Origin: Escherichia coli
GTDB taxonomy: Bacteria > Pseudomonadota > Gammaproteobacteria > Enterobacterales > Enterobacteriaceae
Assembly (NCBI RefSeq): GCF_041248615.1
Contig: NZ_CP158426.1
DNA length: 64,000 nt
Reading direction: 5' to 3' (one strand)
A program made the translations under genes and the position numbers. The notes beneath the pieces were generated by a model. That model was not told where the DNA came from, ran no database searches, and was given only the letters and a program-made list of their open reading frames with translations. Below are positions 53,210 to 59,203 of this stretch, one piece after another. Numbering within the stretch: position 1 is the first letter of the stretch; the number at the start of each line of letters is the position of its first letter.

Positions 53210-53959
53210 TCACTGATCTCCTTCGGTCAACGGAGATTGTATTTTCCGCATTGATTCTCCTTTAAGTTCGATCTTGATACTGCCATGAACCAGTCGATCT
53301 AGGATGGCATCCGCATGTGTGGAGTCTCCGATCATTTTGTACCAGTTTTCCACCGGCAACTGGCTCACTACGATGATTGAGCCTCGTTGGTACATCAGAT
53401 CCACTATTTCCAGCAGGTCGCTACGCTGTTCTGATGAGAGAGGTTCCAGCCCCCAGTCATCCAGAAGCAGCAGATCGCTATTATTCAGCCTGGTCAAAAG
53501 TTTGCTGTATCTTCCATCAGCATGCCCCTGATAGCACTGTTCCATCAGCGCTTTAAGGCGATAATAGTAGACCTTGTATCCCTGTCGGCAGGCATTATGA
53601 CCAAGTGCACATGCCAGGAACGTTTTACCGCTGCCGGTGGCCCCGGTCAGTAAAATATTTTGTTTCAGGGTTAACCAGTTTCCCTGACTGAGTGAACGGA
53701 TGAGGGCCCTGTCCAGCCCTCTATTGTTACGATAATCCAGCTTTGATAACTCAGCATTAAGTCTGAACCGTGCATGTTTGATCAGACGCTCTGCCTTCCT
53801 GTTTTCACGGCAGGTTAGTTCTTCTGCTGTCAGTAATGACAGGCGTTCTTCGAAGCCCAGCTCCTGGTATGTGCCCGGCTGAGCAAGTTGCTTTTTAAGC
53901 GCATCACGGAAGCCGGTGAGTTTAAGTGCGGTCAGTTGTTCGTAAAGATGATTCATCAT
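53210..53959 (-). CDS. istB: IS21-family helper ATPase IstB
   Basis: 249 aa; Walker A GATGSGKT. Confidence 0.9.
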   Translation of the reverse strand: MMNHLYEQLTALKLTGFRDALKKQLAQPGTYQELGFEERLSLLTAEELTCRENRKAERLIKHARFRLNAELSKLDYRNNRGLDRALIRSLSQGNWLTLKQNILLTGATGSGKTFLACALGHNACRQGYKVYYYRLKALMEQCYQGHADGRYSKLLTRLNNSDLLLLDDWGLEPLSSEQRSDLLEIVDLMYQRGSIIVVSQLPVENWYKMIGDSTHADAILDRLVHGSIKIELKGESMRKIQSPLTEGDQ

Positions 53960-53970
53960 TGGATCCCGTA

Positions 53971-55512
53971 TCAGTGGTAATACTCACTGCCGCGTACGTT
54001 TTCGTGTTCCATCGTGGATAACAGATCTGGTTTTGGATCCTGAACAGGTTGTTTATCCAGACCTTTTTCCAGGATCGATTTAATACCTGACAGACGCCAT
54101 ACCTTTGTTTTCAGAGCTCTTGCACATGCTGCATTAAGTCTGGCTTTACTGTATTTTTTATGAAGGTTCAGGAGTCCAAGGCAGAAGCGATAGCTTTGTT
54201 CCGGATGTGGACGAGAGTTCAGTATATGAAGCACATAACTATGAGTTTCACTGCCTATGTGCCCCGCCCATTCCAGAAGACGCTCTGGCGTCCAGGTGGC
54301 ATGCTGTCGATGAGCTTCAGGCATGTGCTCGTTGCGGGTACTGTAGCCATAAGTACGCTTGCGCGGGTGCACAGCAACCTCCTGCCCCTGATTGAAGAGT
54401 CTTACCAGTTCTCCGGAGATCCATGCTTCCAGTTGCTGGCCTAACAGCGAACATGGAACCGAGTAGTAATGTTTGTCGATTTCCACGTGGTAATCGGCAT
54501 GAACTCTGACTTTCTTCACCAGGGTGTAACTGTAACTGGCTTCAGGAAGAGGCTTCAGTGCGGGTTTATCAAGCTGGATGAAGAGTTCTGCACGTGAATA
54601 ACCCAACTTCTGCATTATTTTGTTATTCAGTCTTTCCAGCAACTCCCGAATGCGCTGATTAAGCGATGCAAGGCTGTAGAAGATCTCATGCCTGATTCGG
54701 GCCATGATCCAGCGTTCAACAACCTGAACGCCAACTTCAGCTTTGGCTTTATCTTTCGGTTTACGTGGCCGCGCAGGCAAAACTGCGACATTATAATGCT
54801 CAAGCATCTGCTGGTAGGTAGGGTTAACGTCAGGATCATACTTACATGCCCTGGATGTGGCGCTTTTCAGATTGTCCGGAACAACAAGTTCAGGAACGCC
54901 ACCCAACCACTGGAAGCAGCGAACATGACTCATCACCCAGTCTTCAAGCTGCTGAGACCAGGTGGCCTCTGCCCATGTGTAACTTGATGCCCCGAGAACA
55001 GCTACGATGACCTGAGCAGTTCTTATTTCTCCGGTCTCAGGGTCGGTAACGCCAACGGTAGGTCCACAGTAATCAACGAAAAGTTTTTCGCCAGCTTTAT
55101 GTACCTGACGCATTGATGGTGAAGTGGTTTTGAGCCATTCACGGTACATCCGGCAGTAATGGTTATAGCTGTAAAAACCGCCTGGATTACGCTCACAGTA
55201 TTCTTCCCAGAGTAGCTGCAGCGTCACGCATTTATTACGCAGTTCCCGGTGTACTGTAGCCCAGTCAGGCAGAGAGTGCTTCTTCATCTTAACCTGGGTC
55301 TGAAGGAACGCATGTTTTAGTTTTGTATCATCCCATCCTGTAGGTAAGGGCCACTGCTTTATGCCAAGTTGAGCCGCCCGATTAGCATATCTGGATACAA
55401 CGGAAGGGGAGATTGCAAGACTACGACCAATTTGTCGATGGCTGAGTCCAACACCGTATTTAAGCCTAAGAATTTCTTTAAGTTTTCTCATAGAAATTGG
55501 AACTGTTGGCAT
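53971..55512 (-). CDS. istA: IS21-family transposase IstA
   Basis: 513 aa; N-terminal HTH and DDE integrase core. Confidence 0.9.
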   Translation of the reverse strand: MPTVPISMRKLKEILRLKYGVGLSHRQIGRSLAISPSVVSRYANRAAQLGIKQWPLPTGWDDTKLKHAFLQTQVKMKKHSLPDWATVHRELRNKCVTLQLLWEEYCERNPGGFYSYNHYCRMYREWLKTTSPSMRQVHKAGEKLFVDYCGPTVGVTDPETGEIRTAQVIVAVLGASSYTWAEATWSQQLEDWVMSHVRCFQWLGGVPELVVPDNLKSATSRACKYDPDVNPTYQQMLEHYNVAVLPARPRKPKDKAKAEVGVQVVERWIMARIRHEIFYSLASLNQRIRELLERLNNKIMQKLGYSRAELFIQLDKPALKPLPEASYSYTLVKKVRVHADYHVEIDKHYYSVPCSLLGQQLEAWISGELVRLFNQGQEVAVHPRKRTYGYSTRNEHMPEAHRQHATWTPERLLEWAGHIGSETHSYVLHILNSRPHPEQSYRFCLGLLNLHKKYSKARLNAACARALKTKVWRLSGIKSILEKGLDKQPVQDPKPDLLSTMEHENVRGSEYYH

Positions 55513-55705
55513 AGGTATCCTTTACCGGAATGGCAAAAGATACAGATCAACACACCTGTGAAGTTCCAATAACATTGATGGAGATCACTGAATAACAAAA
55601 TGAGTCAAAAGTGATCTCCATCGATGTTATTCAGCGATCTGTTCAAATGTTATTACCCGATCTCGATGGAAGTTATTGAGTGATCTCCTTTCATGAAAAT
55701 ACGCA

Positions 55706-55711
55706 CTGCGG
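55706..55711. repeat. Target-site duplication CTGCGG, copy 2
   Basis: See copy 1. Confidence 0.6.
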
Positions 55712-56723
55712 ATAAGTTTACCGGTCAGGTCGTGGTGATAACGCTGTGTGCGGCCGTCAAAGCCGGTTTCCTGTATCAGCCGGTCGAGTACATCGTAACG
55801 GAAGGTGGTGTGGCTGCCGTTTTCACTGGTCAGGCGGATGACCCGTCCGGCAGCATCGTATTCCATACTGCGCGTCAGACCGCCCTGTGTGGTACGGATG
55901 GCCTTTCCCCACGCATCGTACTGTGTCCCGTTTCTGCTGCCGTCCGGGGCAATGACGGCGGTCAGGTCACCGGCGGCGTTGTATTCATACCGCGTTTCAT
56001 GGCCCTGCGTGTCTTTCACCGCAATTAACTGTCCACGGCTGTCGTATGCGCGGTACTGACTCAGCCCTTCCTCGCGGTGCACCGCCGTCACCTGACCAAA
56101 ACGGTCATGGTCATAACGGGTTACATAACCGGAACAGTCAGTGACGGTCAGCAACTGACCGTAACGGCTCCATGTCATGGTTTTCCGGCTGCCGGTGGCA
56201 TCTTCCGTTGCGCAGGGTAAGTCACTGTGTGGATTATCATAACGGTAGCGGGTGATATCGCCGTTGTGTGCGGTTTCCTGAATCAGACGGCCGGATTCAT
56301 CATATTCCCGGCGCAATTCCAGCCCGTCAGGCCCGGTGGCTGACGTTAACTGGCTGTGGTGGTTATAGTAAAATGCCGATGCCCTGCCATCCGGTGTGGT
56401 GATGCGCGTGATGAGTCCCGTCACCACATCCGGGCTGTACTCAGTCGTCCGGCCTGCGGCATCCGTCTGTGCCTTAAGCCTGCCCACCGCGTCAAACTGA
56501 CTCTGCGTGACGCTGCCGTCCGCGTGTTCCTTTTTCACCACCCGCTTCAGCCCGCCTTCGCCCTGCGTGTGCAGCACTTCACGGCGGTCCAGGCTGTCGG
56601 TGATGGTGATGTGGTCTTTCTCATACTGATACGTGTAGCTTAAGCCTGCCGGGTTTAGCTGTTCTGTCACCCGCCCGTCACTGTCGTAACGGTAACGGAT
56701 TTCCGGCCGGCCCGTGTGACGGT
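55706..56723 (-). pseudogene. rhsA: rhs middle fragment (YD-repeat region) between the two IS elements
   Basis: YD-repeat protein segment ...RYDHDRFGQVTAV...YHHDLTGKLIRS; reading frame runs into the IS ends on both sides. Confidence 0.85.
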
Positions 56724-57478
<755 letters not shown>

Positions 57479-57582
57479 ATCAGCATACTTGTCCTTAGCC
57501 TTCTGCAGTGACAGCTGGTAGTACAGCGTGCTTCTGGCCAGCCCTGCAGCCTTTAACAGGTCAGACTGGCAGTGTCCGCACC

Positions 57583-58113
57583 TCAGGCTCCGGATGACTT
57601 TCGTTTTTTCTCCAGCTCCTGGCGCTTTTTTTCCAGGAGATGCTCCTGCATGGCTTTCAGATATGCATTTTCTGCGCGAAGATAACGCAGCTCATTCTTC
57701 ATCTCTTCCGGCGTCATGTTTGCCTCGTTTTCATGGGTATCATCAGAACGGGTCATGCTTTTCTCCTTCCTGCGCCTGATAAAGGCCTCATTACCAGATT
57801 TGCGGTAGCCTTTTATCCAGTTTTTAACCGTGTTGTGGCTGGGAATGTTAAACCGGGCAGCTACCCGGGGTAGAGACTCAGAATGCCCGAGAGCATAAAG
57901 AACCACGCAAAGTTTATCTTCAGGAGAATAGCTACGCTTGTGTCTGCAATCCAGTGCCCGAGGACCGTGAAGAAGAAAAAGATTAATCCAGTGTGAGAGG
58001 CTGGTGTGAGAAAGTTGAAAGAGTTTTGCCGTAGAAATGATGCCTGTATGACCAGCCAGGTAATGATTTACAGCGGCAAGTTTTACTTCAAATGAATGTT
58101 TCATAAACTGCAC
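57583..58113 (-). CDS. IS3-family transposase OrfA (HTH)
   Basis: 176 aa; N-terminus resembles IS150-group OrfA; leucine-zipper-like C-terminus. Confidence 0.85.
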   Translation of the reverse strand: MQFMKHSFEVKLAAVNHYLAGHTGIISTAKLFQLSHTSLSHWINLFLLHGPRALDCRHKRSYSPEDKLCVVLYALGHSESLPRVAARFNIPSHNTVKNWIKGYRKSGNEAFIRRRKEKSMTRSDDTHENEANMTPEEMKNELRYLRAENAYLKAMQEHLLEKKRQELEKKRKSSGA

Positions 58114-58155
58114 CTTCAGATGTCAGATTATGTCCAACATTTGGGGTGCAGTTCA

Positions 58156-59203
58156 GGTGCGCCACCATCCGGCCCCGGTATTTATCATCGTAAGTAAAGC
58201 TGCGCACCTGTGTATTGCTGCGGTCATACACCGCCGCCAGTTCGCCGCGTGGCGTCCAGCCATAGCGCACCAGCGGCGCGGCAGGTAAATTCTCCGGGTA
58301 TTCCGGGTCGTGCGTCAGCCACACGGCAGACAGACGGATGCCGTTGTCCCGGCCATATTCGGTGTAACCCGGCAGGGTATCAGGAAAAACGGACGGTTCC
58401 ATCCCGCCGGAAATGGCCTGCTGCCGGGCTTCTTCTGCCCGCTGCGCCTGCGTGGTCAGTACCAGCCGGAAGTGACGCCCGGCACCATCCGTCACGCCGG
58501 TGATTTCGCCGCTGAATTCGCCGCCAGCCTCACGGTGGAACGTCTGTGTGCGCCCGAAGCGGTCCACCAGCCCGGTCAGTACCCGGTACGGCGGCAGCGG
58601 CGCAGGCAGCACCTCATCCGCCTCCGGCACCCGCTCACACCAGCCGAGTACCCACCACGGCCCCTGCGGACTGTTCGTCGCCAGATAACGATGCGGACTC
58701 AGGCGAAGCTCTTCCGGCAGCGCCTGCCAGAGTGCGGCCAGCCGGTGACCTTCATCCAGTTTCGCCACGCCGCCGCGCACCAGCCAGAGTGACTCGCTGC
58801 GGCTGTAACCGTCCTCACCGGGAAACAGGTGCTCAAAATACAGGCTTCTGCCGCCGTTATCACTGAGTATCAGTGTGTTATCGCGCAGCTGTAAGCGGAT
58901 ATCCGCAGGCATTTTCCAGCCGGGGCCGAGGCTCCCCACCGGCGCGGGCGTTTTTGTCCGGTAACTGCTGTAGGTGCGGGAGAGGATGAACGGCAGCGGG
59001 CCGGGCAGGGCAAGGTCGGTTTCGCCGGGAAGGACCTTCGCGCCGAGCAGCGGATTGACCGGATGGCCGGACGTCACCCCGCCGGGGCACACCGAACAGG
59101 CCACGCCGGTGGGGGCACCGATGCGCACCCCGGCTGAACCCTGGACAATGCTACCGCCATACTGCGTCATGTCGCCCTGACGCGCCGCCGGTTTTCCGCT
59201 CAT
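58156..59203 (-). pseudogene. rhsA: rhs N-terminal fragment (PAAR-like N-terminal domain and first YD repeats)
   Basis: MSGKPAARQGDMTQYGGSIVQGSAGVRIGAPTGVACSVCPGG...; the frame reads into the IS3 end. Confidence 0.85.

What the first reader, a model, noticed from the sequence alone, without database searches (positions are those of the whole stretch)
57583..57640. Programmed -1 frameshift site in the IS3-family element
orfA ends at 57583 and orfB has no upstream start close to it; about 45 nt upstream of the orfA stop the minus strand reads GGAAAAAAAGCG, containing the A AAA AAG slippery heptamer typical of IS3-family OrfAB frameshifting. This supports an intact, translatable transposase.
Basis: partly seen in the sequence, partly recalled or inferred. 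Interest (0 to 1): 0.3.

Follow-up and report, generated by a model that had tools for sequence, protein, structure and literature searches.

The report
IS1397 transposase programmed -1 frameshift site
This is the ordinary, already annotated ribosomal -1 frameshift signal (A AAA AAG) that lets the E. coli insertion sequence IS1397 fuse its two overlapping reading frames into a working transposase.

Summary
On the minus strand, window 58155-56724 is a complete 1432-bp copy of IS1397 (IS3 family). It has imperfect terminal inverted repeats and a 3-bp target duplication (ACC), and it sits inside an rhs gene. orfA runs from 58104 to 57583. The heptamer A_AAA_AAG lies at 57631-57625, in the correct phase (GAA AAA AAG). 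orfB is in the -1 frame and has no stop from 22 codons upstream of the junction to its end at 56756. The 449-aa fusion matches the IS3 transposase model end to end in one stretch. RefSeq already annotates this exact copy as [quoted passage not shown]. All 16 relatives examined keep an in-phase A_AAA_AAG. In the eight-member IS1397 clade, synonymous-type variation switches from the 0 frame to the -1 frame at the heptamer. That places the slip there and not at the second A-run 16 nt downstream. An SD-like GGAG 12 nt upstream is kept in 7 of 8 clade members. A downstream hairpin is only weakly supported. Side notes: this clade's slip site lies 9 codons downstream of the IS150-type site and lacks the IS150-type hairpin. 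The rhs target resembles the REP/PU palindrome that IS1397 normally uses. Verdict: real, ordinary, already known.

The parts
56724..58155 (-). Complete IS1397 copy (1432 bp), IS3 family
   Evidence: 100% identical to copies in 2 E. coli genomes and 99.5-99.9% identical to many others annotated as IS1397 family. Boundaries come from the inverted repeats and target duplication.
58131..58155 (-). Left terminal inverted repeat (IRL), TGAACTGCACCCCAAATGTTGGACA
   Evidence: It is an imperfect match to IRR (about 21 of 25), and the element ends are 5'-TG...CA-3'.
56724..56748 (-). Right terminal inverted repeat (IRR); its reverse complement reads TGAACTGAACCCCAAAACCTGGACA
58156..58158 (-). Target-site duplication ACC, left copy
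   Evidence: Removing the IS and one ACC restores the continuous rhs reading frame.
56721..56723 (-). Target-site duplication ACC, right copy
57583..58104 (-). orfA (173 aa, HTH domains plus C-terminal coiled region); ATG at 58104, stop TGA at 57585-57583
   Evidence: The PGAP start is record position 218104, which is window 58104. The exact protein is on record in a 2287-member cluster.
57643..57646 (-). [quoted passage not shown]
   Evidence: Meets the motif and spacing rule of Sharma et al. 2014. Kept in 7 of 8 clade members. The synonymous third base of its GAG codon is invariant.
57625..57631 (-). Slippery heptamer A_AAA_AAG, the -1 frameshift site
   Evidence: In phase with orfA. Invariant in 8 of 8 IS1397-clade members and present in 8 of 8 more distant relatives. 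The frame under selection switches here.
57584..57621 (-). Candidate 3' hairpin (38 nt, dG 12.4 kcal/mol, starts at the 4th nt after the motif)
   Evidence: Meets the Sharma hairpin rules with ddG/nt 0.133. Shuffle z-scores are only -1.0 and -1.45. It is not conserved in the clade and shows no covariation.
57604..57609 (-). Second A-run (GAG AAA AAA CGA); rival, weaker slip site; lies in the loop of the candidate hairpin
   Evidence: Broken in L017. -1-frame selection already operates upstream of it.
56756..57625 (-). orfB part of the fusion (-1 frame, re-reading G57625; 289 aa; HTH_21 plus the rve DDE domain); stop at 56758-56756
   Evidence: D295, D355 and E391 are invariant in the nine-fusion alignment.

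Best explanation
The site is the programmed -1 ribosomal frameshift signal of IS1397. Most ribosomes translating orfA end at TGA 57585-57583 and make OrfA, a 173-aa DNA-binding protein. A minority slip while AAA and AAG occupy the P and A sites (57630-57625). Both lysyl-tRNAs re-pair one base back on A_AAA_A, and decoding resumes at GCG (57625-57623) in the orfB frame. The product is the 449-aa OrfAB transposase, with junction ...LLEKK|APGAGEKTKVIRSLR... Shown here: the in-phase heptamer, the open -1 frame, a fusion that matches IS3 transposases across the junction, conservation of the site, and the switch of selective constraint at the site. Inferred: that the slip is ribosomal, that GGAG 12 nt upstream pairs with 16S rRNA to stimulate it as in dnaX and IS911, and that a modest 38-nt hairpin starting at the 4th nt after the motif may help. 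By analogy with other IS3-family elements, frameshift efficiency would set the OrfAB:OrfA ratio and so the transposition level.
For: The heptamer is in X_XXY_YYZ phase and the -1 frame has no stop. The fusion scores 387.8 bits against NF033516 transpos_IS3 in a single stretch over profile positions 1-369 of 369, and has rve and rve_2 domains. RefSeq marks this copy 'programmed frameshift' as a two-piece join of 1349 nt, which equals 449 codons plus a stop with one base read twice. The same annotation appears on four other copies. An in-phase A_AAA_AAG sits in the orfA/orfB overlap of 8 of 8 diverged IS150-type relatives. It is invariant in all 8 IS1397-clade members, although the 7 relatives' OrfAs are only about 52-59% identical to IS1397's. 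Pairwise codon differences upstream are 85 synonymous / 87 nonsynonymous in the 0 frame and 40/155 in the -1 frame. Between the motif and the second A-run they are 20/60 in the 0 frame and 51/39 in the -1 frame. GGAG meets the published SD rule and is kept in 7 of 8. A_AAA_AAG is one of the three most efficient heptamers measured in E. coli. 72% of IS1/IS3-family heptamers are A_AAA_AAG or A_AAA_AAA.
Against: There is no experimental evidence here for the OrfAB product or the junction peptide. The primary IS1397 papers could not be read. The downstream hairpin is not significantly more stable than shuffles (z -1.0 and -1.45). It is not conserved, its RNAalifold covariation term is +1.07, and ddG/nt is about zero or negative in 5 of 8 clade members. 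Conservation of GGAG may partly reflect the Met-Gln-Glu codons it lies in. The syn/nonsyn counts come from only 8 related sequences and are not phylogenetically independent. No Rfam family matches.
Confidence: 0.9

Rival explanations
1. The slip occurs at the second A-run (GAG AAA AAA CGA, 57609-57604) and gives a fusion ...RQELEKK|TKVIRSL... of the same 449-aa length.
For: Both frames are open between the two A-runs, so either site gives a full-length fusion. An in-phase A_AAA or A_AAG tetramer at this position is present in 7 of 8 clade members. Lysyl-tRNA(UUU) is intrinsically shifty.
Against: It is not a full X_XXY_YYZ heptamer, because the P-site codon would have to re-pair on GAA. A_AAA is the weakest of the six effective tetramers. 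The run is broken in L017 (GAG ACA AAA), while the first heptamer is invariant. -1-frame selection already operates upstream of it: 51 syn / 39 nonsyn against 20/60 in the 0 frame, and APGxGEK is conserved.
Confidence: 0.04
2. The frames are joined by transcriptional slippage. RNA polymerase would add one A in the A7 run (57632-57626), so some mRNAs encode OrfAB directly.
For: A run of 7 A is present and invariant in the clade. Homopolymeric A/T runs are linked to transcriptional slippage, and some IS elements use it.
Against: From general knowledge, elements that use transcriptional slippage usually have longer runs of about 9 or more. The more distant relatives have only A6 followed by G, always in the exact ribosomal phase. 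Strict conservation of the 3' G and of the phase is expected for ribosomal slippage and not for polymerase slippage.
Confidence: 0.03
3. There is no recoding. The heptamer is incidental, and OrfB is made on its own from GTG 57478 or not at all, so this copy is a relic.
For: AAAAAAG is common in the window, 23 matches against 15.7 expected. A GTG-initiated 240-aa ORF exists. Roughly half of the E. coli records with IS1397 matches hold only partial copies.
Against: A GTG-initiated OrfB would lack the conserved 70 residues of the -1 frame upstream of it, including the RSTLYY motif conserved in all relatives. The heptamer is conserved in phase in 16 of 16 relatives. The fusion matches the IS3 profile continuously across the junction. 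This copy has intact ends and a target duplication, and its insertion is found in only 2 of 5426 genomes, which points to a recent transposition.
Confidence: 0.03

Closest known systems
IS1397 (IS3 family; E. coli; known for inserting into REP/PU palindromes of BIMEs)
   Same: This is a copy of it: 1432 bp, 99.5-100% identical to copies annotated 'IS3-like element IS1397 family transposase, programmed frameshift'.
   Different: This copy lies inside an rhs coding sequence and not in an intergenic REP, although the target is REP/PU-like. It also has a private OrfA A20T change relative to four other copies.
IS150 and IS150-type elements (e.g. ISBth167)
   Same: orfA/orfB overlap in the -1 frame, an A_AAA_AAG heptamer, the same domain order, and 41-47% fusion identity.
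   Different: In IS150-type elements the heptamer encodes the KK of 'YLKK'. It is followed 6 nt later (stem starting at the 7th nt) by a conserved GCCUU...AAGGC stem, with 8 pairs kept in 7 of 7 and compensatory changes at pairs 7 and 8. There is no upstream SD. In the IS1397 clade the heptamer is 9 codons further downstream ('LLEKK'), that stem is absent, and an SD-like GGAG lies upstream.
IS911 and E. coli dnaX -1 frameshift signals
   Same: The same A_AAA_AAG heptamer combined with an upstream SD-like stimulator and a downstream structure; a mechanistic analogy.
   Different: These are not homologous cassettes. IS911 has a three-way-junction structure and dnaX a strong simple stem-loop. In IS1397 the 3' structure is weak and not conserved.

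Membership tests
IS3-family insertion sequence | Two consecutive ORFs with orfB overlapping orfA in the -1 frame | tested here: met
   Frame 0 orfA and frame -1 orfB overlap by 109 nt.
IS3-family insertion sequence | DDE (rve) transposase; the fusion matches the IS3 transposase profile above its cut-off | tested here: met
   NF033516 scores 387.8 bits (cut-off 160) over positions 1-369 of 369. PF00665 rve scores 75.7 bits. D295, D355 and E391 are invariant.
IS3-family insertion sequence | Imperfect terminal inverted repeats ending 5'-TG...CA-3' and a 3-4 bp target duplication | tested here: met
   IRL and IRR both begin TGAAC. The duplication is ACC here and 3-4 bp in four other copies.
IS1397 (the named element) | Near-identity to the reference element | tested here: met
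   99.5-100% identity over 1432 bp to RefSeq copies annotated as IS1397 family. The ISfinder/GenBank reference sequence itself was not available for direct comparison.
IS1397 (the named element) | Insertion into REP/PU palindromes | tested here: inconclusive
   Four other copies sit in canonical GCCGGATG...ATCCGGC palindromes. This copy sits in a PU-like sequence inside rhs (GCCGGATGGTGGCGCACC|...GGGCCGGCC), with the same 10-nt offset from GCCGGATG.
Programmed -1 ribosomal frameshift signal | X_XXY_YYZ heptamer in phase with the upstream ORF, inside the overlap | tested here: met
   A_AAA_AAG at 57631-57625, 0-frame codons GAA AAA AAG.
Programmed -1 ribosomal frameshift signal | Motif conserved among diverged homologues, with coding constraint switching frame at the motif | tested here: met
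   16 of 16 relatives have it. The syn/nonsyn pattern switches at the motif.
Programmed -1 ribosomal frameshift signal | Flanking stimulator: an SD-like sequence 6-17 nt upstream | tested here: met
   GGAG lies 12 nt before motif base 2 and is kept in 7 of 8 clade members. Its stimulatory function is inferred.
Programmed -1 ribosomal frameshift signal | Flanking stimulator: a 3' RNA structure | tested here: inconclusive
   A 38-nt hairpin meets the published rules (dG 12.4, ddG/nt 0.133). It is not better than shuffles, is not conserved, and shows no covariation.
Programmed -1 ribosomal frameshift signal | Demonstrated frameshift product | not testable with these tools
   This needs a reporter assay or protein analysis. 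The primary IS1397 papers are not held.
IS150-type frameshift cassette | Heptamer at the 'YLKK' codons followed, starting at the 7th nt after it, by the conserved GCCUU...AAGGC stem | tested here: not met
   The IS1397 clade has CTG AAA/AAG GCC at that place, with no heptamer and no such stem. The slip site is 9 alignment columns downstream.

The most novel reading that the evidence does not exclude
Within the IS150 group, the IS1397 clade has turned over its recoding signal. The slip site moved 27 nt downstream without changing linker length. The covariation-supported 3' hairpin of IS150-type elements was lost. An upstream SD-like GGAG may now be the main stimulator. This would be a natural example of a frameshift site migrating along a two-frame overlap. 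The displacement and the hairpin loss are shown here. The SD function, and whether this has already been described (for example in IS3-family frameshift surveys), are not established.
Probability: 0.4. Interest if true: 0.3.

Novelty: already known. Interest (0 to 1): 0.1.

Why it matters
It matters little beyond correct annotation. The result confirms that this IS1397 copy encodes a complete, frameshift-dependent transposase and is probably still mobile. The rhs disruption it caused is therefore likely recent, being present in 2 of 5426 E. coli genomes. The comparative side result may interest people who study how recoding signals evolve. In this clade the slip site has moved and the stimulators differ from those of IS150-type relatives.

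Tried and rejected
- **Exact-sequence look-up of both candidate fusions:** neither the first-site nor the second-site fusion is on record. This decides nothing, because the collection holds mostly single-frame gene calls.
- **Primary IS1397 papers:** PMC94167, PMC169884 and PMC95333 are not held, so any published experimental frameshift data could not be cited.
- **Rfam scan of the element:** an E-value-threshold scan found no match.
- **Single-sequence folds downstream of the heptamer:** they are not significantly better than shuffles, with z -1.0 and -1.45.
- **RNAalifold on 8 clade members:** it found no covariation and no conserved 3' hairpin. I therefore do not claim a downstream stimulatory structure.
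- **P0021 as a guide to the PGAP junction:** I expected this NCBI partial protein to show the annotated junction. It is instead an internal-deletion variant that reads the A-run in the -1 frame.
- **First protein search:** It was repeated successfully.
- **Second A-run, transcriptional slippage and independent OrfB initiation:** all three were considered and rated unlikely (see the rival explanations).

Full report
**1. What is in the sequence**

Window 58155-56724, read on the minus strand, is a 1432-bp element. It is bounded by imperfect inverted repeats: IRL is TGAACTGCACCCCAAATGTTGGACA, and the reverse complement of IRR is TGAACTGAACCCCAAAACCTGGACA. A direct 3-bp duplication, ACC, flanks it at 58158-58156 and 56723-56721. 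Removing the element and one ACC restores a continuous rhs reading frame (...GRMVAH|RHTGRPEIRY...).

orfA starts at ATG 58104, preceded by GAAGGTG, and ends with TGA at 57585-57583. The string GGAAAAAAAGCG is at 57634-57623. The heptamer A_AAA_AAG occupies 57631-57625, with 0-frame codons GAA AAA AAG, which is the X_XXY_YYZ phase required for tandem -1 slippage.

orfB is in the -1 frame. That frame opens 22 codons upstream of the junction and has no stop until 56758-56756. The first canonical start codon in that frame is GTG at 57478, 105 nt beyond the orfA stop.

**2. What it is**

A megablast against 5,426 complete E. coli genomes finds the element in 3,496 genomes. Full-length copies at 99.5-100% identity are annotated "IS3-like element IS1397 family transposase". 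The window corresponds to NZ_LT599825.1, where window coordinate x equals record position 160000 + x.

Its 1349 nt equal 449 codons plus a stop with one base read twice. That matches the 449-aa fusion I obtain by shifting -1 at the heptamer. Four other copies carry the same annotation.

- **Profile match.** The fusion matches NCBIfam NF033516 (IS3 family transposase) at 387.8 bits in one continuous stretch covering profile positions 1-369 of 369. It therefore runs straight across the junction.
- **Domains.** It contains HTH_28, HTH_21, rve and rve_2.
- **Catalytic residues.** D295, D355 and E391 are invariant in an alignment with eight diverged relatives.

**3. Is it more than chance?**

AAAAAAG alone is common: 23 matches in the window against 15.7 expected. 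From that rate I estimate about 0.006 chance of an in-phase copy on the right strand within the 109-nt overlap. The decisive evidence is comparative.

- **Distant relatives.** Eight relatives were collected, seven from plasmids plus IS150 of E. coli K-12, at 41-53% fusion identity. They come from Pantoea, Acinetobacter, Pseudomonas, Priestia, Bacillus and E. coli. All have orfB in the -1 frame and an in-phase A_AAA_AAG in the overlap.
- **IS1397 clade.** Six further members were recovered through OrfA homologues at 53-59% identity. Together with IS1397 and the Pantoea SO10 element they make eight sequences. GGAAAAAAAGCGCC is invariant in all eight, while the mean column identity of the surrounding 165 columns is 82%.

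**4. Where exactly is the slip?**

A second A-run (GAG AAA AAA CGA, 57609-57604) would give a fusion of the same length. Three lines of evidence favour the first heptamer.

- **(a) Frame of selection.** In the 45 nt upstream of the heptamer, pairwise codon differences are 85 synonymous / 87 nonsynonymous in the 0 frame and 40/155 in the -1 frame. Between the heptamer and the second A-run they are 20/60 in the 0 frame and 51/39 in the -1 frame. Variable columns there fall at -1-frame codon positions 1, 2 and 3 as 3, 0 and 5. The -1-frame peptide APG(A/S/T)GEK is conserved, and the substitutions are CCA/CCG and GGA/GGC/GGT wobble changes. Caveat: eight related sequences are not independent.
- **(b) Conservation.** The second run is broken in L017, while the first heptamer is invariant.
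- **(c) Measured efficiency.** A_AAA_AAG is one of the three most efficient heptamers measured in E. coli, whereas A_AAA is the weakest of the six effective tetramers (PMC4066793).

**5. Stimulators**

I applied the published criteria of Sharma et al. 2014.

[quoted passage not shown] It is kept in 7 of 8 clade members, and the synonymous third base of its GAG codon is invariant. None of the seven IS150-type relatives has such a motif within that window.
- **Downstream hairpin.** A 38-nt hairpin (57621-57584; dG 12.4 kcal/mol; starting at the 4th nt after the motif) meets the rules, with ddG/nt 0.133. The evidence against it is substantial. Folds are not significantly better than shuffles (z -1.0 and -1.45). 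RNAalifold finds no conserved hairpin, and its covariation term is +1.07. Five of eight clade members have ddG/nt near zero or negative.

I therefore treat the SD-like motif as the likelier stimulator (inferred) and the hairpin as unproven. No Rfam family matches the region.

**6. Mechanism**

This section rests on established knowledge plus inference. Most ribosomes terminate at the orfA stop and produce OrfA. A fraction slip on A_AAA_AAG, with lysyl-tRNA(UUU) in both the P and A sites, and continue in the orfB frame. The product is the OrfAB transposase with junction LLEKK|APGAGEK.

In the IS3 family the fusion is the transposase, and frameshift efficiency sets the transposition level (PMC5009743; PMC4066793). 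Transcriptional slippage at the A7 run and independent initiation of OrfB were considered and rated unlikely (see the rival explanations).

**7. Comparison with known systems**

This is IS1397 itself. The general design is that of IS150, IS911 and IS3. The cassette differs from the IS150 type in three ways.

- **Slip-site position.** In the seven IS150-type relatives the heptamer encodes the KK of "YLKK". In the IS1397 clade those codons read CTG AAA/AAG GCC, with no heptamer. The slip site lies 9 alignment columns (27 nt) downstream at "LLEKK", and the alignment of that region needs no gap between IS1397 and most of the relatives, so linker length is essentially unchanged.
- **Hairpin.** The IS150-type heptamer is followed, starting at the 7th nt after it, by a GCCUU...AAGGC stem. 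Its first eight pairs are kept in 7 of 7, with compensatory changes at pair 7 (AU/GC/GU) and pair 8 (UA/CG/UG). The IS1397 clade lacks this stem.
- **Upstream SD.** It is absent in the IS150 type and present in the IS1397 clade.

**8. Is this copy intact?**

It is full length, with both inverted repeats, a target duplication and uninterrupted frames. It differs from four independent copies by 1-7 nt. The only amino-acid difference common to all four comparisons is OrfA T20 (A20 in the others), and nt 481-600 are identical in all five copies.

The rhs::IS1397 junction occurs in only 2 of 5,426 genomes, which fits a recent insertion. Activity of this copy is inferred and not shown.

**9. Verdict**

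The feature is real, ordinary and already annotated. Interest is low.

Noticed in passing
window 58156-58190 and 56690-56723 (rhs flanks of the IS): IS1397 is known for inserting into intergenic REP/PU palindromes, and four other copies do sit in them (GCCGGATGCGGCGTGAAC|IS|GAACGCCTTATCCGGCCTAC and similar). Here it sits inside an rhs coding sequence, at a PU-like site: GGCCGGATGGTGGCGCACC|IS|ACCGTCACACGGGCCGGCCGG. The offset from GCCGGATG is the same 10 nt. This junction is present in only 2 of 5426 E. coli genomes.
   Followed up: partly
window 57625-57660; loci L002-L009, L014-L019: In the IS1397 clade the slip site lies 9 codons (27 nt) downstream of the IS150-type site, with no change in linker length. 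The covariation-supported GCCUU...AAGGC hairpin of IS150-type elements is absent, and an SD-like GGAG appears upstream.
   Followed up: yes
window 58047 (IS nt 109): This copy has A where four other copies have G. That gives OrfA T20 in place of A20, in the N-terminal HTH region. It is the only amino-acid difference common to all four comparisons. Its effect is unknown.
   Followed up: partly
window 57634-57649 and 57615-57640: Three related hexamers surround the heptamer: CAGGAG-CAU-CUCCUG upstream and CCAGGAG just downstream. CUCCUG could pair with the SD-like CAGGAG, a 6-bp hairpin seen in the MFE fold. It could instead pair with the downstream CCAGGAG, which would put the heptamer in a loop. 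The upstream hairpin is kept in 6 of 8 clade members without covariation.
   Followed up: partly
L014-L019 (orfA stop / orfB start): In six clade relatives orfA ends at TAG within TAGTG, and gene callers start orfB at the overlapping GTG. IS1397 reads GTC ATC there, lacks that start, and extends orfA by a few codons to TGA.
   Followed up: no
window 53210-56724: The rhs remnant downstream of IS1397 (window 55705-56724) is itself truncated. About 190 bp further on lies an IS21-family ISEc12: istA at window 53971-55512 and istB at 53210-53956. The rhs locus therefore appears to have been hit by at least two IS elements.
   Followed up: no
E. coli genomes: 3,502 records match IS1397, but only 1,711 have a place covering at least 80% of it. 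About half of the carriers therefore seem to hold only fragments.
   Followed up: no
protein P0021 (NCBI, partial): This is a natural internal-deletion variant of IS1397. It joins OrfA residue ~R116 directly to the -1 frame just before the A-run (…FIRRSPGKKAPGAGEKTKV…), so the fusion is frameshift-independent.
   Followed up: no
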